Of a DNA stretch of 64,000 bases, positions 20,098-64,000 are shown in pieces. How positions within the stretch are numbered: the stretch's first letter is position 1; each line of letters starts with the position of its first letter. The translations under genes were made by a program, and so were the position numbers. Source of the stretch: Trypanosoma brucei (taxonomy: Eukaryota). The stretch is from the NCBI GenBank assembly GCA_000002445.1, contig CM000208.1, positions 3,040,001 through 3,104,000 on the forward strand, written 5' to 3'. Under the pieces are notes generated by a model. That model was not told the origin of the DNA. It saw only the letters and a program-made list of their open reading frames with translations, and did no database searches.

Positions 20098-20109
20098 GGG
20101 GGGGGGGGG
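20098..20109. repeat. G12 homopolymer (C12 on the coding strand of the flanking genes)
   Basis: A perfect run of 12 G in the SET to ProRS intergenic region. Confidence 0.9.
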
Positions 20110-20800
20110 CGAGGAATCTTCTTCCCTGAAATCCCCTTAAAATATCACCTCCTCCGTTTTCCACTGTCGGTGATGACGAAAAATGTTTAGCGTGGCATAA
20201 TTGAAACCATTTTCCCTATTGACCACCTCTTAGCTCTACCCGTTTTACGTTACAGCGGCGGTGAACGACAAGAGTTTTAGCACTGACTCCACGTAGCCTC
20301 TCTCGTCTTCACTACTGCACTCCGAAATTAACTCGCCTGAAAACATTCCTTTTTGCTTCCGTTCCTCACACTCCAGTGTACTCCTCTTTCCTTTACTTAT
20401 TTCTTCGCACACATTCTCTCCTCAACCACCTGTCTTCTCCCACCCCCATCAGTTTGTTGAAAAACGTTTTGACCGTTCCCGTAGCGAACGGCAGCGGTTA
20501 TTTCCTCTTCTCGCGCTCACAAGACGACACCAGCAGCCACTTCCCGTCGTGTGCTCATGAGATGAAATCGATAGTGAAACCACATTATAATAATTGGACA
20601 GCGAAAGAAAAAAAAACCAACCGGCAAAAACAAGGAGAGGGAATACAATAAAGAAGTAGGGATAGGGGAAGAAACAACTGCAAGGGGAAAGAGAAAGAAG
20701 ACAGCAGTACACAATGATGCAAATTATTGACCATTGCCAGGACATCATTTCAGAGGAATATGAAAGGAAAAAAACAGGTGACTTATGTGCTGGCTCTGTT

Positions 20801-30836: not shown

Positions 30837-31621
30837 TTATTAATGCAGAAGCGGGCAGTACAAGGCTCTATCAATGGAGAAGATGAGATCTATTAGTGAA
30901 AAAAAACTAGATGACCCTATATATATATACTCTATTAAAATAAAAGGGACCACCCTCGGATTACCTGGAATTTCTCACTGTGTAAGAACTCGAAACAAAA
31001 AGGGCGTGAGTGCTCCAAACCGCTACCCTCTTCACAATCTAATTCTACCACCCCCGTTGGTGCTAACAAACTGAGCCCTTGTGGAGTAGAGCAGAACGAA
31101 AAGAAAGTGGGGAAAAAGATGTTTGGAACAATCGTAGGAGTAACCTTTGTTACACTCAGGAAGAATGGGGAGATCCAACGAAGTAGGACCTTTGCTTGCA
31201 CTTTCTCCGATAGCGCATCTCTCCTTTCGTTACTCACGCTCCCTATTTTATCTCCTTCCTCAGCGATCGTTTTTCTTCAGGTGGCCATCAAAACAGAATG
31301 CACACTGCGCTAGGGTCTGGGAACCGTGGTCCAATAACCGTAACACCCACACTCGCTCCACGCGGCAACCGAACAAGGTCCGCGGTGGGGATAATTACCA
31401 TCTTACGGGTGGTAGTAGCAACACTTCCCACTTTATTACTTCTAATAGAGACTATGGGATAACCCCACCGAAGCCGATCCCTACGTAAGCATAACTATAC
31501 AACAGAGAACCCCCTCTCGACCGCCCACACGTTGCAACAGCCATTCAAGAATGGCTCTGTAACCTGGTGCACGCGTGACCCCCCCCCCCACGTGAGTTCA
31601 CTTCTCGCCCACCGCTGTCTT

Positions 31622-47118: not shown

Positions 47119-47771
47119 CGCCAACAGGGTACAATCCGCTCTCCTGGTTTCCCTAACTCCCTCCGTTTCTATCCCGCCAACCCCTCGCCTCTGGCTGAAG
47201 TTGCTGAAGGTGATGTCACACCTCCCGAGTTCCTAATAACCAACCGCCTCACCCCCGTATAGCGGCCTCGACTCTAACTTAGGTGGACGAAAAAAGAAGT
47301 TGAAAAGTGAAATCATAAACAAGCAGTGGTAGAAGAGTAAAAACGCAAACATACCCAACGTGGAAAAGCAGCTTCCACATACCCCGACAGAAGTAGTGAA
47401 CTTGTATGGCAACGAGAAGGATAAATATAAAGATACACAAAAATTAATGTGTACGATATTTACATATACATGTGTGCACAGAGGCGGAGAACACCCTAAA
47501 TAAGGAAAGATTAGAGAATAAAAGTGTGCGGACGACCCCGCACCACACAACTAACTCAAGGTAGCACAACTGCGCCCTTTTACCCTCTCCTTCTTTCTTC
47601 ATTGGTTAGGTTAAATGCATTACGTTATTTCCCAGCATAGGCATTCGAACAATAAATACAGAGAAAAAAGAAAAAAATTAAACTAGACAACGGCATTCAA
47701 AGGCATGTTGGACTCACCCCTGCCGTGCAGTGCATCTCAGTTCGCATCACTCAGGGAAGCAGACAAACGTG

Positions 47772-47795
47772 TATATATATATATATATATATATA
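47772..47795. repeat. (TA)12 microsatellite
   Basis: Perfect tatata... run in the PKAC to PDE intergenic region. Confidence 0.9.
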
Positions 47796-49226
47796 CTAAA
47801 ATAACTTAGGGCATAACATGGAAACTTGGTCAAAAATTACACTTTCGAAGGGAAACAAAAAGAAAGAAGGATAACCCCATTCATTCAAACGAAACAATGA
47901 GCCCCCACCAGCCACGCCGGCACGAAGTGGTGGCCACACCGATTCGAGGACACAACGTATGGACAGGTAAGCGCCACAAAAAAATGTCTGATTTCTGTCA
48001 ACGGAGCGAAGTGACCAAACAATCAAACAGAAAATGTGGGTGGAATGGTGCGAAATCAGTTCCTCGGGTTTGAGAAATTGTGGGGACGCACACCATCTCA
48101 GTGCAAGATCCATCTTGCAAGGAGCACTCGAAAGTTCATGCAACACAGTAAAGTGAACGTGGACACACAAACAACATCAATGTTTCCTCATAGCAGCAAC
48201 GCGGATTCGGTAGTGCTGCGACGCAACAAACAAAGGTTAATGGGTACCTAATAGTCGGGGTACATAACTATTTTGAGCGAGCGAGCGGAGTCCCTTCCAA
48301 AGCTTCCTCGGTTTTAAAATTGCCTGCAACGCTCATAAAAACACATATCCTCAAGATACCCGGCATTCGTCCACATCTAACCACCATCACCCTCTCGATT
48401 GTGAAAAAGAGCGATCATGTAACCGACTGCTTACGCGCACCTGGTGTTGCAGACTCACATCCACACGTCTCCCCCCGGTATTTCAGAAGAAGTCAAAAAC
48501 GGGAGAATAGGCCGCGCATTTCAGTGTGATCAAAAAGTTCAAAGCAACACTGCCATTACGTGCTTCCGTATTCTTACCCGATTTTATGCAGCTATAAAAA
48601 GATACGAGATACAACAACTTCCACCCTGGGACTCATATTTTACCCAATCGATGTATTTTTCACAATCATTTAGCATATAACAAACCCACTGCAGTATCAG
48701 GCACAAAAACAAATATATGTTGTCACTGTCCCCTCTCCCGTTTATTTCCGGGCGAACCCATTACCGCTGTCCCTGCCCACTGTGTGCATATTACTTTCTG
48801 CACCCTCACCAACACCTTTAGTTCGACCCCTCGCACAACCCGAAACGAAAGTTCACATAATCTATAAGGAGGGTAAAAGCATTCAACTGTATGATGGCAA
48901 TTCTGTGACGGAATAAAAAAGGGGCTCCTCAAAGGGGACAATCACATTCTCTAAGTAAGAGCCTCTGCTGTACTCCTCGTTGCTTTCGCAAACGAAATAC
49001 TTCTAACATGTGCCTCACCCCTCCTGCGGCACTTGAGGAGACAGCTTTGGCTCATGCCATTCTCCCCTTTGCTGCTTCTGACACTGCCAAACACGAGCAC
49101 GAAACCCGGAACCTGGCTTTTTGTCAACAGCAGAAAGAAATCACAGAAATCGGCTATTAGCAACAACATCTTAAGGGGTGCAAACATCACGGCTGTTGAT
49201 ACCGTTAAGGACGTCAAAGGAAGTGC

Positions 49227-53617: not shown

Positions 53618-55858
53618 TTACTCCCATTCTAGAGGAACAACACAAAAAAGGGTTAAAGAAAACTGCACATCTTCATGTACACACCTAGCGCGAGGAACTA
53701 ATCTATATGATTCCTGAGGCTTCATCGTTACGTCCAAATTGAAAACAACAAGAATATCTGACCTAAACTCCGTTAACCATAAGAGGTCATCACCGCCAGG
53801 ACACAAATAACAAGCACTACGTATTTCCAAGCCAACACCAACGGTTCGTTTGTGGTTTGGTATTTGTGATATTGCCACAACGAAATTTCTAACTGTTATA
53901 TCAGTTTTATTTTTAATCACGAACGACGGGCCCAATTCTGACCCTTTCCTCCACCAGTCCTTAATTGTTTTAAGTTCCGGAGGGGAAAGTGGAACGAAGT
54001 CAAAGCAATCCAAGCACGTTGCGCCCAAGGTACATGGGAAAGGAGCAGAGGAAGACACAGTTACCTGTAACGATTCATTTCCTTTGAGTAACACCACTAA
54101 ACCAACCTCACCACCCTTGGCCTTTTTAGTAGAAAGCAATTCATTTCTGGGACAAACATCACATCTTCGCATTCCCCCCAACCCGTCAGCCGAATATTTG
54201 AAAATATGCAACTGAGTCCATTCATCATGCATTTCATTATCTCTACTAGACGCTCGCACGACCAACACTACCTCTTTCTCCGAATTGCTGTTATTTGAGA
54301 GGAGAAACGAAGGATTACTAGCAAAAGTTGACACAGTATCCGATCCTCCCAGACAACAGCACGGATACTCAATCACATGTCTGTGAATATAGAGTGGATC
54401 ACCGTGAGGCCAGAGAAGTAGGCCAATTCGTTCGAAATACGATATTGCATGCTCTAAGTGCATGCTATTGGATGGAAACTCTACTATACCATCTTTCACC
54501 AAATGTGGAGTAGCGCCGATATATTCAATTGGTTTATCATTCAAGGAAGAAAACCGTACCACACACGTATATCCTGAGTCAGCGTTAGGAGCCTCCACTG
54601 CCGTCAGAAGATAAGGTGTAAACGGAATAATACCAATTTCTTCCAAGCATCTAAAGGCTCTTTCAATCTCCGGATTCGCATGAAACGCAACTATTCTCTT
54701 TTTACGAACACAATCTTTCAAGAATCTGAATATATCAGCTACACTAACATGTTTCTTCAAATTCTTCATTTGAAGTTCAAAGCAGATACCACCGGTCAAG
54801 CACGAGAGGGCATAACCAAGACCAACTCCTGTAATATTTTTGTACCCGCCGTGAAGTTTTGCAAAAGCCTTCTCTACTAAACATCCCCAATAGTCACCAC
54901 TGTTGCTTTCATGGTGAATACCCGCCGGACGATCACCGATCATCGGAATAAAGTCATCAATAACGACCTCTATTGGAGTATCACCGGAAAAAAAACGAAA
55001 TGCGAAGGCTCCTATGCAAGGAAGTTTCCAAATGCAAAGGTTCCTAAGCAAATAAGAAACCTGTTGGACCACACTAAGGGCAGCACGAAGGTTAGAAGTA
55101 TCATTTATTACTGAGGCTACCAATGGTTTGTCACCAACACAGCATTCGTTTTGATCCCTTTGGTCTTCTACAAGAGAGCTCACCCTCACCCACTTTATAT
55201 CACTATTTTTTAAGGCAGTATCAGGCGGGAAACTATTATCTGTAAATGGGGCACCAGATGTAGCTGCGTTGTTCATAATGTCCCTGCAAGACGCATCGCA
55301 TACCTCCGTTGAGCAATGACATGCTCCCATGAAGCAATCCTCATTCCACGATTCCATTCGCCACCTCCAAATTTTTGCTGTCTCTGGAACAACTGCTTTT
55401 CGCCATCGTGTTTGATTTACTTCCCACTGCATTCTATTTATCTCCGTCTGCAAATGTATTGCATATTCAACCTCACTTGATAAACCAGTGCCAGACAAGT
55501 CGACAACGTGTAACCCTGCACAGGCAACAGCCAAATCCTTTAATGCAGCACCGGACGTGTTATCTAAGTGTACGTTGCACAATACGAGACGTGTAACCGA
55601 ACTGCTTCTCAGAACAGCAAAAAGACGTACTAACTGATCGGTTGGTACTTGCATCCCACTGACATCTAACACCTCAATCTCAGACCGCCTTTCAAGAAAA
55701 TGAATGACACAATCGAAAAATTTGGACGAATAGACATACCTGCTGAGATTCAGTTCGTTGGGAGATTTTTCCAAACCTTCCAGCAAATCTGAGTATACTT
55801 TACAACCCAACCACTCAGAGATATACCGGTACTCCTCAGCCACACTAATTATTTCCAT
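53618..55858 (-). CDS. Calpain-like (C2 family) protein with an N-terminal leucine-rich-repeat region; the catalytic Cys appears to be substituted
   Basis: A 746-aa ORF with an ATG start that I verified. It is the first gene of the minus-strand PTU. The N-terminal 150 aa are LRR-like (LDVSGMQVP..LVLCNVHLDNTSGAALKDLA..LHVVDLSGTGLS). Calpain core motifs follow: GDTPIEVVIDDFIPM, YWGCLVEKAFAKLHGGYKNI and GYALSCLTGGI. The position that aligns with GDCW reads GDKP, so Cys is replaced by Lys. Confidence 0.65.
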   Translation of the reverse strand: MEIISVAEEYRYISEWLGCKVYSDLLEGLEKSPNELNLSRYVYSSKFFDCVIHFLERRSEIEVLDVSGMQVPTDQLVRLFAVLRSSSVTRLVLCNVHLDNTSGAALKDLAVACAGLHVVDLSGTGLSSEVEYAIHLQTEINRMQWEVNQTRWRKAVVPETAKIWRWRMESWNEDCFMGACHCSTEVCDASCRDIMNNAATSGAPFTDNSFPPDTALKNSDIKWVRVSSLVEDQRDQNECCVGDKPLVASVINDTSNLRAALSVVQQVSYLLRNLCIWKLPCIGAFAFRFFSGDTPIEVVIDDFIPMIGDRPAGIHHESNSGDYWGCLVEKAFAKLHGGYKNITGVGLGYALSCLTGGICFELQMKNLKKHVSVADIFRFLKDCVRKKRIVAFHANPEIERAFRCLEEIGIIPFTPYLLTAVEAPNADSGYTCVVRFSSLNDKPIEYIGATPHLVKDGIVEFPSNSMHLEHAISYFERIGLLLWPHGDPLYIHRHVIEYPCCCLGGSDTVSTFASNPSFLLSNNSNSEKEVVLVVRASSRDNEMHDEWTQLHIFKYSADGLGGMRRCDVCPRNELLSTKKAKGGEVGLVVLLKGNESLQVTVSSSAPFPCTLGATCLDCFDFVPLSPPELKTIKDWWRKGSELGPSFVIKNKTDITVRNFVVAISQIPNHKRTVGVGLEIRSACYLCPGGDDLLWLTEFRSDILVVFNLDVTMKPQESYRLVPRARCVHEDVQFSLTLFCVVPLEWE

Positions 55859-58800
55859 TTAATTACTTCCTTTGCGTTTTGAAAGCGAATATTGAGGACA
55901 TAAAGAGGGAGAGAAAGTACCGTAAGCACAACACGCCACTCCCGGCCCAGGGATAACAGAAACTATATTCATCAATTGAAAAGTAGATATCAAAGGTTTC
56001 AATGTCCCCCAGAGTCAGAGTAGAAGCAAGCCGTTGCGGGTGTCAACGGCGCTGGTAACGCAAACAAGTAAAAGCGAAAAAATCACGTCCCTATCGCAGT
56101 CACCCTCCCCCCCCCCCCCCGCAAAAAAAAAAAAAACGTCAAGATCGGCCGCGCGTTGAGACAAGGCAAATAAACTAAACATGGGAAAAGAAAAATTTGT
56201 AGAAGCAAATGAAAACGCACCGCACACGAGCGGTGCAGAAGTACAGAGGTAGCTGGTAAAGAAAAGAAGTGACGCCGGAACGCGCGCCGCCATAGGCTAA
56301 GTAACAGCCCCCTCCACACAACCCATCTCGTGGACCGCAACGGCGCCCCGGCTGCAACGACCACGACCAGGCGCACCACGATCGGACACCCCGCCGAGGA
56401 AAGAAAACAAGGGGCCCCTACACAGCCTCGCCGCAGTAATCCGGAAATGCGCAGCAACCAACCGTCGCAGAGAAGGTTCCATTGCCCAACTCCGCCGCTA
56501 GAAGGGGGAAGGGAAAGAAACACGTAACGCCGCGCCAGTTCAGCTCTTTAGAGGGCCCAAACGGTATGGTCAAAGGAAAACCTGCTACGGGGAAGAGATT
56601 GACAGACGGTTGGTAACTGTCTCGACCTGTTCATTTCGGCTGCGTGTTACCCAAAGGGAGGCGGTACATATTCGGGTAACTGCCAGTCGTTATGTGGTTT
56701 CCGAGGTTTGTAGAAGGAGGAGGCCGAAACGGTATCAGCTACGTTACCGATTTGTGGTCGGTGAGCCGCCAATCCTGCGTTTGCTTGTCTTCGTAGGTCG
56801 CCAACATTTTCAACATCGACTTTGACACACCTTGCTCAGCTACGAGTCTGTTGGTGACTGGACTACGCGACCTCGGCGGTTGAAAGCGAAGGTGAACACT
56901 GGGGCGGGTAAATAAAAGAAGGTCAACTCCCGGACGTGGGCAGGCGGGTCGTTAACTTCGGCCGGTTTGTTAGCAGTTGTGGCGCTACTGTTTAAACAAG
57001 TGGAGGGGTGTGAGACGACACCGCGCACCCAACCATGGGAGGAGTACATCGGTGGAAAGCAGACCCAAAGCGCTTACCGACATTGTGAGAAAGCGATGTC
57101 AAGAGAGGGGAACGAGTGACAGTGCCCACAAACTTTTCATCTCTTTCATTGGCTTCAAAAAAAAAAAAACAAAAAAGGGTCCTCTCAGAGTAAAGGGAAA
57201 GACTACGCAATCAGTATGGACCAATATGATAAGATCAACTGTAAGGAAGAAACCCCGACGGAGGCAACCTGATGCCACAACAAACTTCGGCGTGGAAGAC
57301 GGGAATCATTACGGCTCCGAAAGGGTGGAAGGGAAGTGAAGAGGGAAACAGTTTGAGAGTGATTAAGAAGCTACATCATGCCGTTGTGAACCCGTGGGTT
57401 ACACCCCACTCCCGGTGGTGACTTCTTCAGAACGAAAGGAAATAATTGTTTAGTTGTGAACAGGGGAAATTGAGTTAGTCGGTTGTCAAACGTGCGCAGC
57501 AGTGGAAAATGGGTTGTACGGCAAAAAATGAAGACAGTGTTCCAGAGATAACACGGGCAATTCCCCCAAATCACACCTAACAACACTGTCAATGATTCCT
57601 GCTTATTCACCAGGAAACGACGTCAACACCACGAGCAATTCGACACATGGGTCTGATAATGTCCTCAAGGCACTACACTGTATAATAATGGAACGGCTCA
57701 GCAACTAACCTCATGATAAAGATCAAAAAGTGGGAAAGAAGGGCAGCATTTGAACGGCTAAAAATAACAAATAAGGTAAAAGACACAAGGGGAACCACAG
57801 TTGCGACATCTGTGTTGTGGCTTTTTGAAAGAGACAAATTGCACTTTGGAAAGCGACTCCCGTGTGGTTTGATTCAGCCTCTTCACGCCCCTTTGCGTAC
57901 GTATATGAGGAGCTTGGATGCGTTGTGAGAAAGCGGTGCAACTTTGAAGAGTGTGATACGGACGACAACTTATCAGCTACTCGAAAAGCTCGTAATGTCC
58001 ATAACAAAAATAAATCCAGCGTATATTGAGACAGGAACGGTAAACACCCCAATGGAAACGGGAAGGGAAATGGATGCACAAAGGTTAGTGTCTTGTGTTA
58101 GCTTCCGGATTCGCAACGGGGACAACGTCGGCGAGGTAGTAGCGCACAGAATTGCAAAACGTTTAGTGAAGCAGTACGCGTCGTATGAAGGTGGCACCTG
58201 TTATCCAGGATATGATGTACCACGCTTGGTGGATGTGGATTTGTTCGTTACGGTTCACGATTGGACAAGAGGAAGAGGCTTTGGTGGTTGGATCCGAAGG
58301 TATTATAATTTATGAGGGCGGACTCGAATAAATAGCTGGCTCGGGTTTCTTAAAGGTAGTTAAGTCATACACACTAAACACGTGGAAAGGATCCGGAGCC
58401 GCATCTGGTCGTAACAGCATCATCGTCAAAGCGCATGTTATCGAACTTCACCATCTGTACGGCGGGTTGCGTGGCGGTGAAGTAAACACGTAACTGCCAT
58501 GACAGACAAAGCTGGTAACGCCAGAGGTTCCAGCATACCCTTCCCTCATTGTCTGTCTGGGGATGCTGTGAAGAGTGCAACCACTTGCTCCTTAATTTGT
58601 GCTGCTGCATTCATTGGTTATACAATGCCATCGTTGTTAGGTGAGGTTGAAATGTTAACAATGTGATGCGTAGCAATGTGAACAGAAAGTGCCCTTACAT
58701 CGCCGACGAAACTGAAAAGGTTTGGAGTGCACGTCTGATTTCTTTACACCCCAGTACACCGTCAGGTACGTGGTTCACGTTGGAATGGGAAGGGGCGGCG

Positions 58801-60763
58801 AAATGGCGAGGCATTTTTGTAATCTTAACGGACCTTGTACGTTTACTGTCTTCGTATTCGCGAGAATACACAACGTTACTTTACAAGTTATTGCGCGGCA
58901 GAAAGAATGATGTTGAAGCAAAGTGGCGCGGATCGTGCACCCACGAAACGGTGGGGACACGGAACTTTCCAGTTCTACGACGCAGCTTCATGTAAGCGAT
59001 GAGGGAGTAGCTTCATCCCCCTCTAGTAAGTGTGGACCTTCAGGCGATATATTCTTACCTTCACCGACGTTCGGGATGAGGACGGCGGTGTGGACATTCT
59101 GACACGGGTGACCCGGTGGTATTGACGGCTCACAATCAAAAGTTAGGGTTTAGTTGTGCTATGAACAGGATGCACAAAAAATGTGCGGGAAAGGTGGCGT
59201 TTGCCGACTTTCATTTGTACTATAAGTGAGTCTGCTCTGCGAGAGGTGAGTCTATGGGAGCAATGTCCTGTTGTTTCGCGGAGGGCGCCATATTTTTTGC
59301 GCTTGTCATTGTGGACCGATGGTGTCACAGTCACTGCACATATACCCTCTGACTTAACAGCACGGAGAGTCACTTACGTACCGGATTATATGCCACATGT
59401 TTGCCGTGCGGTAGTCGCCTTTACGTCACCTTTTATTTTCATGCTTTGCTTTCCGTTGGCACACCGCTGCTTGCCCCATGGCATATTCTGTGGATTTGTT
59501 GGGAGATGAGACAGGCTTGTGCCCAGACAAACGTACCGTATTTGAAGTCCAACCTTCTATTCAGACAGATAATACTCGCCATCAGCTTACCGAAGTGATG
59601 TTAACTGATGAGTTTCGGTGTAGGGCTGTGTTTTTTATTCAGAGAGTTGAAGTGCAATTTGTGTGTCAGGGGCGCCGTTTTCATACCCTGTACATATCGC
59701 AAAGGTGGGTGGATGGAAATGATTATTTTTTTTCTTTGATGCAAAGGAGCACACTTTGTTCTAGTCGTATCACGCGTAGGTGTGCAGAGGTTACGTTTGA
59801 AGCATATTACCCAGTTCGTAAAGCACGCTGAAGACATTGAAACACACATCACCAGCTATGTTGATTGACACCACCAGTAGACAAAGCTGACCACTGCGCG
59901 TGAACACTTTTTCGCACATGCCAAATTCTTTAACTATAATACCTATGAGGACGCGGTGTGTTTAGCTTAGTGGTAGTTTATGGAAGAGGGGGGCCATGCT
60001 TGTAGGAAATGCTACTTGGTAGTTCGTGTGAAGGCTGTAAAGCTCGTGCAGTTGAGCTGATTGCCAACGGTGTACTGATGCTACGTCAGCGGTGAGTAAA
60101 TACTGTTTTATTCGATACTTCTATGTTTCAAGGGAGTTTCTGCTGGATGGTAGTTTTTCACATTTTTTACTTTCCTTTCCTACACACGAAGTTTACTGTT
60201 GTTGGGAAGCAACTATCACGTGCATCGCCGTGGTTATATAAATGTTGTGTGCATTGGAAGTGGTTGCCCAAACTCCCTCACTACATGAAGGAGGAGGCAT
60301 GCGTCCTTAGTAAACCCCGAAACACTTGCCTGTCGACGTGCTTCGCGTGACGTGAAGAGGGAGTTTATGTCGGTCGTCTGCCCTCTCCCTCGGGGCCCGA
60401 CCTGAAATGATGCTGGGGATGTTTAGTATTTCTTTGCTTCTGTACAGTTTTCTATACGTGTACACCCTTCGTCGCGACGGGCCCCACATGTTTGAGCACA
60501 GCTATTGCAGTCCAGAAAGCCCTGTCGCGTTGCATGACTCTCACTACCCCCTGGCATAAAATACTACCAACAGTGTGTTTTCCTCTCTGTCTTTTAGGGC
60601 ATAGCAGTTTCGAGCCATACAAATCCTTTTAGCTGCCACCGCGCGTTGACGGGGCTACCGCTGCAAGACACTGCAACGACACACATATACAAATATATAT
60701 ATCACAACCTCCTGATCTAGGAAACGGTTCCCTGGTGACTGCAACTGGATAAATCCTTCCGCC
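55859..60763. promoter_or_regulatory. Divergent strand-switch region between the minus-strand and plus-strand PTUs: a candidate RNA polymerase II bidirectional transcription-start region
   Basis: Coding polarity flips here: all the genes to the left are on the minus strand and the adenylate cyclase to the right is on the plus strand. There is no long ORF. The region contains the C14/A14 homopolymer pair and a GC-rich island. Confidence 0.7.
56107..56136. repeat. C14-GC-A14 homopolymer pair (G14 and T14 on the minus strand) at the edge of the strand-switch region
   Basis: The sequence is cccccccccccccc gc aaaaaaaaaaaaaa, about 250 bp upstream of the first minus-strand gene. Confidence 0.9.
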
Positions 60764-63700
60764 ATGAAAGCACCAGCCTTGCTGTTGTTTTTACTGTCAG
60801 CATGTGCCGCATCGCCGCCGACGAGGGAAGCCGGGGGTGTACAAGTAACCGTGACAATTGTGTCTCTGATGTACAGTAAAAACTGGCCTGCTGAGTACAT
60901 CAACGCTGTCAATGCTGGTTTTAACGCATCCCTGGCCGCGCGGAACTGGGTGGTAGCGCCTGGGGTTAATGTTTCGGTAGTTCCACCCCCGTCGTACGAC
61001 ACCCCAGCATATCAGCACCTGGAGAAGTACTTAGAAAATGTAAAGGACGATAACAGCAGTATGGTGGTTGTGTTGGGTCCCATGGGCGAAGAGAGCAGCT
61101 TTGCCTCGTATGATACCCTGAAGAAACACGGTCTTGTCGGATTCGCTCCTATGACTGGGGCTGCGGGTTTTGAGACTTACCTTCCACACCTCTATTTTCT
61201 TCGCCCTGGTTTTACGGGTGAACTCATAGCCCTTATCCGTTATGCCGTGACTTACCTGCGCGTTCTCCGGTTGGGGTTTACCTACCTTGAAGGTATGATG
61301 GGGGGTACTACCACATACGAGAATGCTGTGGACTTTTTGTCACGCATGGGATACACGTTTTGTTGTATTTTCACAGTGCACGGGACAGCCGAAAGGCGGA
61401 CGGTAACAGGTAGGGAGTTCGATGTGGCATGGAACGAGTTTGCCGGGAAACTTCCACAGGCTGTTATTGTTGTTGCTACTGTAAATGATGAAATAAAGAA
61501 TTTTGTCAAGAACCTTGTGGCTGATCCACGCACCGCGGATGCGTACCTGTTGGCTCCCTCACTAATGCAGAAGTCGATCGTGACAGTATGGAAGGAGGCA
61601 TTGGAAGCTGCAAATGCCACTTTTGTCCCTCGTCGCGTAATCCAGACAGGCACCAACCCACTTGCCAACGACACAGACAGTCGTGCCATTAGTCGCTTTC
61701 AAGGTGAGATGCGGGATTATCTTACGGCATATGGGGAATGGGCCGGTGTCGACGACGCAGAGTGCTTCCTCAAGGACGACGCAGAGGGAGAACTGATGGT
61801 TGCTGGTTGGCTCGCTGGAGAGGTGCTATCGCAAGCTCTACGGAGCCATGGATGGATGAACAATCGCACAGCTTTCATGGAGTCGCTCTACGAGCAACGC
61901 CGTTACGTCGTTGACAACATCGTTATTGGTGACTTTGGAGGTAGTTGTGAGGACAATTCTACTGATAGCGGTGCCATCTGCCAGTGCAACCGCGGCGGTA
62001 GGAAGGTATACATGAAGGAGATTGCAGAGGGCTACCGACTAAGACCGCTTGTTGGCGGCTACATCGTACAGTCCCAACTGGAGTGTAATAGTGATCCTGC
62101 AATCCTGCAGCCGCCGCTCAGCGGACTCGCCATCCTCATAAATGATCGCCAGGAGCTTACGAGGGCTGTGAAACAGTTTAAAATTGGCACGTCTGCCGTA
62201 TCTGCAGATGGCGAAGACGATGACGTGGACAGGCTTGTCATTCAGGTATTTGACACAAAGGCGCATACCGCTTTCGACGATCTCAAGGCGCTGCAACAGA
62301 GGAAAATTTTAACTGCTTTGTTCGGTGTCGTAACTGAGTCGTTGTTAGAACTCTCAAACGTGACATTCATTGACCCAATGGTGCCAACGCCTCATTTAAA
62401 CACTTTCAACAGGAATGTGATCCGCCTGTCGCCAACATTGGAGCAGCAGCTTTATGTACATGCGACCTACCTGTCTAGCATCCGTGCTGTTAATGTCCAC
62501 TGTATTGTCAGAAGCAACGAAGCGGCTCGCATCATCGACGTGCTTAGGAAGACGTTGATTACCTTTGGTCTGAATCTCAGTTCCACAAAAGTATTGGAGG
62601 CCAGGACCACGATTAGGGGGAATCTACCGACAAGGGGCAGTGTATTTCTCATTGGGCTCGTCGGCACTGACATTGCGGCAATTGAAGAACACCTCCGCAC
62701 ACACGAGAGGACTCTTATATTTGTCCAGTATTCTGACATCGCGTTGCTATACAATGAGTTTGTGCAAACATTTAACAACACTCATACTGCCGAACGTCTT
62801 GTGTTCGCAACAAGTTTACCGCACTGGGCAGACGCCAACACGACATCGGAGACTGTGCGACGGTTCCAGGACGTTATATCTGATGTGGCGCTACGGACAC
62901 CGCTGTCACTGTTGGGTTTTGCCACTGGCAGGTTGATGCAGAGGAACTTGCAGCGTATGCCCAAGGTGACCCCTGAACTCCTGTCCGACCTCTTCTTCGA
63001 AGAAACAGTGATCACTGTCGACGACATGCGCTATGGACCATTCAGGCACTACGATTGCGTAATCAACGATGTCGTTACCGAGGATAATTGTATAACAAAT
63101 TTTGGTGCGGCGGACATCAGTGTGTGGTCGATGGCGCGTGCGCTACGACCACATGAGCCAGTACTGCAGGAAGCGATGTTTCCGTCGATGAAGTATAACG
63201 TTCCTAATGGTAACGCCCTCACCCCCGCACAACTTGCTGGCGTAATCGGTGGGACCTCGGCAGCCCTGTTCCTCCTTTTGGGGCTTGGCGTGCTATTGTA
63301 CTTCGTCCTTCGCGATGGTCGCGACAACGACAACGCGCCCAAGGAACCAACAGACCCGGTGACGCTCATCTTCACCGATGTCGAGAGTAGCACTGCGCTG
63401 TGGGCTGCTCACCCCGAACTGATGCCGGAGGCCGTCGCAGCTCACCACAGCATGATCCGCTCGCTGATTTCCCGTCACGGATGCTACGAGGTGAAGACGG
63501 TTGGGGATTCGTTCATGATAGCCTGCAAGAGCCCAACAACCGCAGTCAAGCTTGTGCTCGACTTACAGGTGATGTTCATGCAGTACGACTGGGGCTCTTC
63601 TGTGTTCGACGATTCGTACCGCGAGTTTGAGTTGCGTAAGGCGGATGATGTCGACGGTTACGCCCCACCAACCGCGCTCCTTGACAGCGCAACGTACGGG

Positions 63701-64000
63701 CAGTACTGGAACGGGCTGCGAGTGCGAGTTGGTGTGCACACCGGGTTGTGTGATATTAGACATGATGAAGTGACGAAGGGTTACGATTATTACGGGCAGG
63801 TTCCCAACCTTGCTGCGCGGACGGAAAATGTGACGAACGGCGGGCAGGTGCTGCTAACGCACGCGATGTACCTTGCACTCAGCACCGCAGAACGTGAGGA
63901 ATTTGACGTGACCCCATTGGGTGAAGTACCGTTGCGTGGTGTGCCGGAGCCTGTTGTAATGTACCAGCTGAACGCCGTTCCCGGCCGCTCTTTTTCTGCA
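60764..64000 (+). CDS. Receptor-type adenylate cyclase (GRESAG4-like), partial; the 3' end lies beyond the right edge
   Basis: ATG at 60764. It starts with a signal peptide (MKAPALLLFLLSACAAS) and a large extracellular periplasmic-binding-protein-like domain. A single transmembrane segment follows (GVIGGTSAALFLLLGLGVLLYFVL). The class III cyclase catalytic domain has PVTLIFTDVESSTALW...YEVKTVGDSFMIA...RVGVHTG...GYDYYGQVPNLAARTE. The ORF track omits it because it has no stop inside the window. Confidence 0.88.
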   Translation, partial: MKAPALLLFLLSACAASPPTREAGGVQVTVTIVSLMYSKNWPAEYINAVNAGFNASLAARNWVVAPGVNVSVVPPPSYDTPAYQHLEKYLENVKDDNSSMVVVLGPMGEESSFASYDTLKKHGLVGFAPMTGAAGFETYLPHLYFLRPGFTGELIALIRYAVTYLRVLRLGFTYLEGMMGGTTTYENAVDFLSRMGYTFCCIFTVHGTAERRTVTGREFDVAWNEFAGKLPQAVIVVATVNDEIKNFVKNLVADPRTADAYLLAPSLMQKSIVTVWKEALEAANATFVPRRVIQTGTNPLANDTDSRAISRFQGEMRDYLTAYGEWAGVDDAECFLKDDAEGELMVAGWLAGEVLSQALRSHGWMNNRTAFMESLYEQRRYVVDNIVIGDFGGSCEDNSTDSGAICQCNRGGRKVYMKEIAEGYRLRPLVGGYIVQSQLECNSDPAILQPPLSGLAILINDRQELTRAVKQFKIGTSAVSADGEDDDVDRLVIQVFDTKAHTAFDDLKALQQRKILTALFGVVTESLLELSNVTFIDPMVPTPHLNTFNRNVIRLSPTLEQQLYVHATYLSSIRAVNVHCIVRSNEAARIIDVLRKTLITFGLNLSSTKVLEARTTIRGNLPTRGSVFLIGLVGTDIAAIEEHLRTHERTLIFVQYSDIALLYNEFVQTFNNTHTAERLVFATSLPHWADANTTSETVRRFQDVISDVALRTPLSLLGFATGRLMQRNLQRMPKVTPELLSDLFFEETVITVDDMRYGPFRHYDCVINDVVTEDNCITNFGAADISVWSMARALRPHEPVLQEAMFPSMKYNVPNGNALTPAQLAGVIGGTSAALFLLLGLGVLLYFVLRDGRDNDNAPKEPTDPVTLIFTDVESSTALWAAHPELMPEAVAAHHSMIRSLISRHGCYEVKTVGDSFMIACKSPTTAVKLVLDLQVMFMQYDWGSSVFDDSYREFELRKADDVDGYAPPTALLDSATYGQYWNGLRVRVGVHTGLCDIRHDEVTKGYDYYGQVPNLAARTENVTNGGQVLLTHAMYLALSTAEREEFDVTPLGEVPLRGVPEPVVMYQLNAVPGRSFSA

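What the first reader, a model, noticed from the sequence alone, without database searches (positions are those of the whole stretch)
55859..57200. Strand-switch edge with a G14/T14 homopolymer pair and a roughly 1 kb GC-rich ORF-poor island: a candidate bidirectional Pol II start zone
Transcription polarity diverges here, with the minus-strand PTU ending at 55858 and the plus-strand PTU starting at 60764. Immediately past the first minus-strand gene lie C14-GC-A14 (56107-56136) and a block (about 56280-57100) that is clearly more GC-rich than the surrounding AT-rich intergenic DNA and has no credible ORF. Guanine runs and GT/GC-rich elements have been reported at trypanosome divergent strand-switch regions and start sites. 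This is the place to look for a promoter-like element and for start-site chromatin marks.
Basis: partly seen in the sequence, partly recalled or inferred. Interest (0 to 1): 0.55.

Follow-up and report, generated by a model that had tools for sequence, protein, structure and literature searches.

The report
Known trypanosome divergent transcription start region
This is the edge of an already catalogued divergent RNA polymerase II start region on Trypanosoma brucei chromosome 10, and its G14/T14 homopolymer pair is a typical example of the G- and T-runs already reported at the upstream ends of such regions, so the finding is real but ordinary.

Summary
C14 lies at 56107-56120, GC follows, and A14 lies at 56123-56136. 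The block 56280-57100 is 56.3% GC, the 98.9th percentile of the window, and has no credible ORF.

Eight of eight published poly(A) sites place the window at T. brucei TREU927 chr10 (v4) 3,040,001-3,104,000. The gap lies between the calpain-like gene (Tb10.389.0470) and the adenylate cyclase ACP4 (Tb10.389.0430). Kolev 2010 Table S14 lists both units as "Divergent" putative Pol II units.

On the minus strand, which is the coding strand of the leftward unit, the element reads T14-GC-G14-AG. It contains four of the published 10-mers enriched on the coding strand at start-region 5' ends, including the top one, G10 (132 coding versus 17 non-coding).

The cumulative GC-skew minimum of the whole window, 56496, falls inside the island. 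A published trans-spliced plus-strand RNA starts at 58641, so rightward initiation lies upstream of that point.

The element is strand-specific, not bidirectional. The T14 could equally be a splicing polypyrimidine tract. I could not reach the exact start sites or the chromatin marks.

No tRNA, Rfam family, Pfam domain, retroelement or homologue was found in the gap. Verdict: already known, low interest.

The parts
53618..55858 (-). Calpain-like cysteine peptidase gene, the first ORF of the leftward Pol II unit. It is Tb10.389.0470, inferred to be Tb927.10.13030.
   Evidence: Pfam Peptidase_C2. It is 99% identical to a Logan contig protein and 50% to the T. congolense orthologue. Kolev Table S14 gives it as the first ORF of a divergent minus-strand unit. 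The assignment rests on gene order and the ID series.
55859..56106 (-). Leader and presumptive 5' UTR of the calpain mRNA, with three alternative polypyrimidine-tract/AG acceptor candidates (AG at 56106/5, 56053/2 and 55871/0).
   Evidence: Polypyrimidine scan using Kolev's definition. No mapped splice-site data were accessible.
56107..56120 (-). G14 on the coding strand of the leftward unit (C14 on the plus strand). With the following AGGG it forms a potential G-quadruplex motif at 56103-56120.
   Evidence: Five overlapping matches to GGGGGGGGGG, plus CGGGGGGGGG and GGGGGGGGAG from Wedel Dataset EV1. G4Hunter score 2.64 and a quadruplex-motif hit.
56123..56136 (-). T14 on the coding strand (A14 on the plus strand). 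It is both an oligo-T element of the GT-rich class and a candidate polypyrimidine tract.
   Evidence: The 10-mer TTTTTTTTGC is in Dataset EV1 (13 coding versus 2 non-coding). The first AG downstream is at 56106/5.
56137..56496 (-). Left half of the GC-rich island and its flank. Measured over 56107-56496, a stretch that includes the two homopolymers, it is 66% G+T on the minus strand and 57% GC.
   Evidence: On the plus strand the GC skew is -0.15 and the T/A skew is -0.55.
56497..57156 (+). Right half of the island, with G over C on the plus strand. The cumulative GC-skew minimum of the whole window, at 56496, is its left border.
   Evidence: GC skew is +0.16 and the G4Hunter bin score changes from -0.37 to +0.32.
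57100..57351 (-). Pyrimidine-dense block on the minus strand. It includes T6GT13 (57176-57157; A13CA6 on the plus strand) followed by an AG at 57154/3.
   Evidence: Four Dataset EV1 10-mers match on the minus strand at 57163-57167.
58641..60404 (+). Published trans-spliced, polyadenylated novel transcript Tb10.NT.185 (1763 nt, 0.21 RNAs per cell in procyclic forms). It sets a downstream limit for rightward initiation.
   Evidence: Kolev 2010 Table S7. An AG lies at 58639-58640, directly before the start coordinate. The coordinate offset was verified on 8 of 8 poly(A) sites.
60574..60597 (+). Polypyrimidine tract plus AG, the probable spliced-leader acceptor of the adenylate cyclase mRNA.
   Evidence: This is a sequence inference only.
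60764..64000 (+). Receptor-type adenylate cyclase GRESAG4 / ACP4 (Tb10.389.0430 = Tb927.10.13040). The ORF runs off the end of the window. It is listed as a single-gene divergent unit.
   Evidence: Pfam adenylate cyclase domains, translation, Kolev Table S14 and the annotation in supplementary file 22, and the ACP4 identifier.

Best explanation
The interval is the calpain-proximal edge of a known divergent strand-switch region on T. brucei chromosome 10, where two Pol II units start back to back.

[quoted passage not shown] It is an instance of the oligo-G/oligo-T ("GT-rich") sequence class. That class is strongly enriched on the coding strand at the upstream ends of T. brucei transcription start regions.

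Inferred mechanism at the DNA level: the rigid 30-bp G and T runs exclude nucleosomes and bias Pol II initiation leftward. Inferred mechanism at the RNA level: the T14 can serve as the polypyrimidine tract for the first spliced-leader acceptor.

The GC-rich island is the compositional hinge of the region. Its left part is G/T-rich on the minus strand and its right part is G-rich on the plus strand. Divergent initiation most likely occurs in and just right of it, between about 56.1 and 58.6 kb.

Shown: the anatomy, the match to the published 10-mers, the listing as a divergent unit pair, and the plus-strand RNA starting at 58641. Inferred: nucleosome exclusion, promoter activity, and the exact start sites.
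For: The window maps to Tb927_10_v4 3,040,001-3,104,000 (8 of 8 published poly(A) sites fit). Kolev 2010 Table S14 lists both flanking units as "Divergent".

Wedel 2017 Dataset EV1 gives these coding versus non-coding counts in the 5' fifth of 199 start regions: GGGGGGGGGG 132/17, CGGGGGGGGG 13/1, TTTTTTTTGC 13/2, GGGGGGGGAG 7/1. All four occur in the element on the minus strand, as 8 overlapping hits at 56105-56121. In that study, synthetic promoters built from such 10-mers drove orientation-dependent transcription and H2A.Z deposition.

Maree 2017 found oligo(dG.dC) runs longer than 7 bp absent from nucleosomes, and oligo-dT runs concentrated just upstream of the first splice acceptor of each unit.

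The global minimum of cumulative GC skew is at 56496. The stretch 56107-56496 is 66% G+T on the minus strand. Tb10.NT.185 starts at 58641 directly after an AG.

The calpain gene is also the first gene of its unit in T. vivax, T. melophagium and T. cruzi, so this boundary is old.
Against: I could reach no start-site, Pol II or histone-variant data at nucleotide resolution for this locus.

G runs of 10 or more are not exclusive to the strand-switch region. Two others lie inside the leftward unit, at 31579 (sense) and 20098 (antisense).

The plus strand of the gap has no comparable element. The T/A skew switches only at 58525, and the local GC-skew flip at 56496 is in the top 0.4-0.9% of positions but is not the largest in the window.

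Three polypyrimidine/AG candidates compete for the calpain acceptor.

The gap shows no sequence conservation with T. vivax, T. melophagium or T. cruzi. No close-strain sequence was available.
Confidence: 0.6

Rival explanations
1. The homopolymers act only in RNA processing. T14, and the other pyrimidine tracts, direct spliced-leader trans-splicing of the calpain mRNA. The G14 is a slippage-grown by-product. Initiation is dispersed, set by chromatin over about 56.5-58.6 kb, and does not depend on this sequence.
For: T14 is followed by the first AG at 56106/5, within the usual distance from tract to acceptor. Oligo-dT runs of 7 or more concentrate at -70 to -20 of the first acceptor of each unit (Maree 2017). 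A-runs on the plus strand, which are T-runs on the sense strand, are common throughout the leftward unit: 29 runs of 8 or more. The SPARC study found no shared motif under Pol II peaks.
Against: G10 is 8-fold strand-biased specifically in the first fifth of start regions, which a splicing signal does not explain. Two stronger conventional polypyrimidine tracts lie closer to the ATG.
Confidence: 0.25
2. The GC-rich island is a decayed retroposon of the ingi/L1Tc, DIRE or SIDER type, lying on the plus strand and ending in the A13CA6 tail at 57157-57176. On this view its GC richness is a historical remnant rather than functional.
For: On the plus strand the island ends in a poly(A)-like tract. 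The orthologous gaps in T. melophagium (L003 8368-9366, a C2H2 zinc-finger ORF), T. cruzi (L004 9398-9793 and an RVT_1 ORF) and T. vivax (L001 1262-5837) all carry retroelement remnants on the strand opposite to the calpain gene. These remnants account for the GC-rich blocks seen in T. melophagium and T. cruzi. The literature states that such elements accumulate in strand-switch regions.
Against: No Pfam reverse transcriptase, endonuclease or zinc-finger hit appears in any frame. tblastn found no similarity to the T. melophagium, T. cruzi or T. vivax remnants, nor to T. vivax and T. congolense ingi proteins. The Pr77-type CCCTGG start is absent from the island. There is no target-site duplication. 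T. brucei ingi/RIME DNA itself was not available for comparison.
Confidence: 0.15
3. The island is an unannotated minus-strand transcript, either a non-coding RNA or a dead gene, and is the true first "gene" of the leftward unit. It would be spliced at about 57153 and polyadenylated near 56150-56270.
For: The anatomy is gene-like. A 250-nt pyrimidine-dense block with a T-tract and an AG (57351-57153) lies upstream, and another pyrimidine-rich stretch (56274-56121) lies downstream. The island's GC content and best-frame codon scores (0.04-0.07) lie between intergenic and coding values. The minus-sense T/A skew extends to 58.5 kb.
Against: Kolev Table S7 lists no novel transcript there in procyclic cells, although it does list one on the other strand at 58641. 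The reading frames are inconsistent. No homologue was found. There is no Rfam hit even at E<=1, and RNA folding z-scores are about 0.
Confidence: 0.12

Closest known systems
GT-rich Pol II promoter elements of T. brucei transcription start regions (Wedel et al. 2017, EMBO J, PMC5579346)
   Same: Long G and T runs lie on the coding strand at the upstream end of a Pol II unit. Four of the published enriched 10-mers occur in the element, and the 390 bp that include it are 66% G+T on that strand.
   Different: The native element is a single 30-bp pair, not a 210- or 416-bp synthetic concatemer. Its activity is untested. It is present for only one of the two divergent units.
Divergent strand-switch start sites mapped by 5'-triphosphate RNA-seq (Kolev et al. 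2010, PLoS Pathog, PMC2936537)
   Same: This very gap is in their Table S14 as a pair of "Divergent" units. Their novel transcript Tb10.NT.185 lies within it.
   Different: The table names flanking genes, not coordinates, so it does not say whether initiation is at the island.
[quoted passage not shown] 2017, PMC5359979)
   Same: An oligo-dT run of 7 or more lies upstream of an AG before the first gene. Oligo(dG.dC) and oligo(dA.dT) runs are known to be refractory to nucleosomes.
   Different: A G14 lies between the tract and the AG, which is unusual. Two other tract/AG pairs lie closer to the ATG.
Retroelement-occupied strand-switch regions (ingi/L1Tc clade with the Pr77 hallmark; PMC4748587)
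   Same: The orthologous gaps in three other Trypanosoma species carry such remnants in the same relative orientation. The island ends in an A-tract.
   Different: No protein, Pr77 or target-duplication signature was detected in the T. brucei island.

Membership tests
T. brucei divergent Pol II transcription start region | Two head-to-head gene arrays separated by a non-coding gap | tested here: met
   22 minus-strand ORFs up to 55858, a plus-strand ORF from 60764, and a 4905-bp gap.
T. brucei divergent Pol II transcription start region | Experimental evidence of initiation (5'-triphosphate RNA enrichment) | tested here: met
   Literature look-up: Kolev 2010 Table S14 lists Tb10.389.0470->1070 (-) and Tb10.389.0430 (+) as "Divergent" putative Pol II units. 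The locus identity rests on the 8-of-8 coordinate check.
T. brucei divergent Pol II transcription start region | Enrichment of H2A.Z/H2B.V, H4K10ac, BDF3 and the SPARC complex | not testable with these tools
   No ChIP-seq tracks or start-region coordinate tables were reachable.
GT-rich promoter element (Wedel 2017) | Published coding-strand-enriched 10-mers present on the coding strand near the 5' end of the unit | tested here: met
   8 overlapping hits at 56105-56121 on the minus strand, including G10, the top-ranked 10-mer. Not met for the plus-strand unit, which has only 3 scattered hits.
GT-rich promoter element (Wedel 2017) | Drives orientation-dependent transcription and H2A.Z deposition | not testable with these tools
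   Needs a reporter assay or genome editing.
Sequence-specific 75-bp Pol II promoter (Cordon-Obras 2022) | Match to the defined promoter sequence or motifs | not tested
   The paper is not held. Citing papers give no sequence.
Spliced-leader acceptor signal | Polypyrimidine tract followed by AG upstream of the ORF | tested here: met
   T14 followed by AG at 56106/5. Two further candidates exist.
Spliced-leader acceptor signal | Mapped spliced-leader junction reads | not testable with these tools
   Kolev Table S4 is truncated in the held copy. The Nilsson 2010 supplements lack the gene.
ingi/L1Tc-clade retroposon remnant (DIRE/SIDER/RIME) | Pr77 5' hallmark | tested here: not met
   No CCCTGG lies between 55953 and 60548 on either strand. 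Only the hexamer start of Pr77 was tested, because no full consensus was available.
ingi/L1Tc-clade retroposon remnant (DIRE/SIDER/RIME) | Residual similarity to endonuclease, reverse transcriptase or zinc-finger ORFs | tested here: not met
   Pfam scan of six frames. tblastn with remnants from three species and with T. vivax and T. congolense ingi proteins gave E>=0.04.
ingi/L1Tc-clade retroposon remnant (DIRE/SIDER/RIME) | 3' poly(A) tail and target-site duplication | tested here: inconclusive
   An A13CA6 tract lies at the plus-strand end of the island, but there is no flanking direct repeat.
Structured non-coding RNA gene | Match to a known RNA family, or unusual folding stability | tested here: not met
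   No tRNA. No Rfam hit at gathering score or at E<=1. The mean folding z-score of 128 windows is -0.02, and the island windows are mostly at or above 0.

The most novel reading that the evidence does not exclude
The roughly 1-kb island, with G-rich halves facing outward from 56496, could be a compact, sequence-defined bidirectional core promoter. On one side it would feed a long housekeeping unit. On the other it would feed a single-gene unit encoding the procyclic-specific adenylate cyclase ACP4. That would give trypanosomes a natural case where initiation of one developmentally regulated gene could be controlled on its own.
Probability: 0.12. Interest if true: 0.5.

Novelty: already known. 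Interest (0 to 1): 0.15.

Why it matters
It matters little beyond confirmation. The locus is a catalogued divergent Pol II start region in the reference T. brucei genome, and the G/T-run signature is the published one.

It could serve as a convenient natural test case. There is one clean 30-bp G14/T14 element on one side only. The opposite unit is a single gene, ACP4. A mapped plus-strand RNA brackets the start zone to about 2.5 kb or less. That arrangement would suit editing experiments on what sets the direction and position of Pol II initiation in trypanosomes.

Tried and rejected
- tRNA and Rfam scans, at gathering score and at E<=1, found nothing.
- The bacterial promoter/terminator scan is irrelevant to this organism and gave background-level promoter counts.
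- Self-similarity of the gap to the rest of the window, and a search for pseudogenes of the window's own proteins including the adenylate cyclase, found nothing.
- A Pfam scan of all six stop-masked frames of the gap found nothing.
- A chimeric query of 11 gap ORFs against 5.8 billion proteins had no hit. T. brucei reference proteins seem to be absent from that database, so this says little about T. brucei annotation.
- An exact look-up of the calpain protein failed. The 99% identical Logan contig is only 2.3 kb and adds no flank and no spliced-leader junction.
- blastn and tblastx of the gap against the orthologous gaps of T. vivax, T. melophagium and T. cruzi matched only at homopolymers.
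- An apparent T. melophagium/T. cruzi conserved patch turned out to be a shared retroelement ORF motif.
- Direct, inverted and tandem repeats and target-site duplications: nothing notable.
- Sliding-window RNA folding z-scores showed no signal.
- The CpG-island idea was rejected because CpG observed/expected is about 1 everywhere.
- Supplements of the SPARC, Staneva 2021 and Nilsson 2010 papers hold no data for this locus. Siegel 2009 and Cordon-Obras 2022 are not held.
Full report
**Observation.**
The sequence is as described. C14 occupies 56107-56120, followed by GC and then A14 at 56123-56136. C14 is the longest G or C run in the window. The block 56280-57100 is 56.3% GC, the 98.9th percentile of 820-bp windows. 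The intergenic regions inside the leftward unit are 31-50% GC. Twenty-two minus-strand ORFs end with the ATG at 55858. A plus-strand ORF runs from 60764 to the end of the window. Nothing in the 4905-bp gap looks coding. The longest stop-to-stop segment is 154 codons. No Pfam domain appears in six stop-masked frames. A chimeric query of 11 gap ORFs had no hit.

**Where the window comes from.**
The flanking genes are a calpain-like peptidase, Vps16, a protein kinase, a PDE and an ankyrin protein on the minus strand, and a receptor adenylate cyclase on the plus strand. The calpain protein is 50% identical to its T. congolense orthologue and 47% to the T. vivax one. Kolev et al. 2010 (PMC2936537) list poly(A) sites and 3' UTR lengths in Tb927_10_v4 coordinates. 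Subtracting 3,040,000 reproduces the stop-codon-minus-UTR position of eight out of eight window genes exactly. The window is therefore T. brucei TREU927 chr10 (v4) 3,040,001-3,104,000. The PDE is Tb10.389.0510, which is PDEA, Tb927.10.13000. The cyclase is Tb10.389.0430. From gene order and the ID series I take the cyclase to be Tb927.10.13040, which is ACP4, and the calpain gene to be Tb10.389.0470, Tb927.10.13030.

**What is already published for this gap.**
[quoted passage not shown] The paper says it mapped putative start sites genome-wide from 5'-triphosphate RNA-seq and summarised them in Table S14. So the gap is a catalogued divergent start pair, and the rightward unit is a single gene.

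Their Table S7 lists a novel transcript Tb10.NT.185 at 3,098,641-3,100,404 (+), 1763 nt, 0.21 RNAs per cell. In window coordinates this is 58641-60404, and the two bases before 58641 are AG. Rightward transcription must therefore begin upstream of about 58.6 kb, not at 60764. No novel transcript is listed over the island.

**The homopolymer pair.**
On the minus strand, which is the coding strand of the leftward unit, the element reads T14-GC-G14-AG. It lies 250 nt upstream of the calpain ATG.

Wedel et al. 2017 (PMC5579346) searched 199 start regions for 10-mers at least six-fold enriched on the coding strand. Most such 10-mers lie in the 5'-most fifth of the regions and consist of long G or T runs. 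Their Dataset EV1 gives these coding versus non-coding counts: GGGGGGGGGG 132 versus 17, CGGGGGGGGG 13/1, TTTTTTTTGC 13/2 and GGGGGGGGAG 7/1. All four occur in the element, giving eight overlapping hits at 56105-56121 on the minus strand. Synthetic promoters made of such 10-mers drove orientation-dependent transcription and H2A.Z deposition.

Maree et al. 2017 (PMC5359979) found oligo(dG.dC) runs longer than 7 bp absent from nucleosomes. They also found oligo-dT runs concentrated just upstream of the first splice acceptor of each unit. G14 plus AGGG is also a potential quadruplex motif.

The element is thus a typical member of a known class. It is strand-specific. The plus strand of the gap has only three scattered matches to the list, so it is not a bidirectional element. 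G runs of 10 or more also occur twice inside the leftward unit, at 31579 in the sense orientation and at 20098 antisense. A G run alone is therefore not diagnostic.

**The T14 as a splicing signal.**
Using Kolev's definition of a polypyrimidine tract, T14 is followed by the first AG at 56106/5. Two other tract/AG pairs lie nearer the ATG, with AG at 56053/2 and 55871/0.

**The island.**
The global minimum of cumulative GC skew for the whole 64-kb window is at 56496, inside the island. The T/A skew minimum is at 58525. In the transcribed intergenic DNA of the leftward unit, the sense strand has both G>C (+0.11) and T>A (+0.15). By that yardstick the gap divides into three zones.
- 55859-56496 has minus-sense composition. 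The stretch 56107-56496 is 66% G+T on the minus strand.
- 58526-60597 has plus-sense composition.
- 56497-58525 is mixed, purine-rich on the plus strand.

The local flip at 56496 ranks in the top 0.4-0.9% of positions but is not the largest in the window. The island therefore consists of a left part that is G/T-rich for the leftward unit and a right part that is G-rich for the rightward one. Taken together with the NT.185 start, divergent initiation is bracketed between the calpain acceptor (56105 or further left) and 58641. That zone is at most about 2.5 kb long, and the island is its left part. CpG observed/expected is about 1 everywhere, so the CpG-island analogy does not apply.

**Other identities tested for the island.**
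There is no tRNA or Rfam family. There is no unusual RNA folding: the mean z-score is -0.02. There are no repeats and no similarity to the rest of the window. Best-frame codon scores of 0.04-0.07 lie between intergenic values (maximum 0.028) and coding values (mean 0.127), but the strand and frame are inconsistent. This most likely reflects GC content alone.

**Comparative view.**
The calpain gene is the first gene of a syntenic unit (calpain, Vps16, kinase, PDE, ankyrin) in T. vivax, T. melophagium and T. cruzi. In T. grayi the contig ends 50 bp upstream of it. The other side of the gap is species-specific, so this is an old boundary and a synteny break. The gaps share no sequence with the T. 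brucei gap.

GC-rich blocks just upstream of the calpain gene in T. melophagium and T. cruzi are retroelement remnants on the opposite strand. One is a 332-codon C2H2 zinc-finger ORF (L003 8368-9366). The other is L004 9398-9793, which shares the motif EET.LHLL.CPALR. T. vivax has an ingi-type element further away.

This raised the idea that the T. brucei island, which ends in A13CA6 on the plus strand, is a decayed retroposon. tblastn with all these remnants and with T. vivax and T. congolense ingi proteins found nothing. There is no Pr77-type start and no target duplication either. The idea remains possible but unsupported.

A second alternative is a minus-strand processed RNA covering the island. 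It is suggested by pyrimidine-dense blocks on both sides, at 57351-57153 and 56274-56121. It is not supported by Kolev's transcript list.

**Verdict.**
It needs three corrections. The element is unidirectional. The rightward unit starts before 58641. The exact start positions remain unmeasured here and may extend to 58.6 kb. The feature is already known as a class, and this locus is already catalogued. Interest is low.

Noticed in passing
window 58641-60404 (+): The published novel transcript Tb10.NT.185 (Kolev 2010 Table S7; 1763 nt, 0.21 RNAs per cell) lies inside the strand-switch gap upstream of the adenylate cyclase gene. It begins right after an AG. It holds only 114-138-codon stop-to-stop segments with no homologues.
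   Followed up: partly
window 60764-64000 (+): The adenylate cyclase, ACP4 by gene order and ID series, is listed as a Pol II unit of a single gene (first ORF = last ORF in Kolev Table S14). ACP4 is reported as procyclic-specific and as down-regulated by a bromodomain inhibitor (PMC10269879). A one-gene unit next to its own start region is a natural candidate for regulation at initiation.
   Followed up: partly
window 20098-20109 (G12, plus strand), 20546, and 31579-31589 (C11, plus strand): Two further G/C runs of 10 or more lie in intergenic DNA inside the leftward unit, one antisense and one sense. The largest local GC-skew flip of the window, at 20546, lies about 440 bp from the antisense G12. 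Whether either marks an internal start or stop site was not examined.
   Followed up: no
L003 8368-9366 (-); L004 9398-9793 (-) and 4604-5374 (-); L001 1262-5837 (-): The orthologous strand-switch gaps of T. melophagium, T. cruzi and T. vivax each carry ingi/L1Tc-type retroelement remnants (C2H2 zinc-finger ORF, RVT_1). All are on the strand opposite to the calpain gene, so they point away from it. In T. melophagium the remnant is 48-56% GC against about 31% in the neighbouring coding sequence.
   Followed up: partly
window 57100-57351 (-): A 250-nt block is very pyrimidine-rich on the minus strand, with tracts of 33, 17, 16, 23 and 24 nt, ending in T6GT13 and an AG at 57154/3. It looks like a strong trans-splicing signal, but no annotated gene lies downstream of it other than the GC-rich island.
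   Followed up: partly
window 47125-49226: The unusually long 2.1-kb intergenic stretch is mostly the 1823-nt 3' UTR of the protein kinase gene Tb10.389.0490, according to Kolev's poly(A) table.
   Followed up: yes
window 55952-55932 (-): The sequence CCCTGGGCCGGGAGTGGCGTG, 94 nt upstream of the calpain ATG, begins like the Pr77 retroposon hallmark (CCCTGG...). It carries a CGTG, but at the wrong distance. This is probably chance.
   Followed up: no
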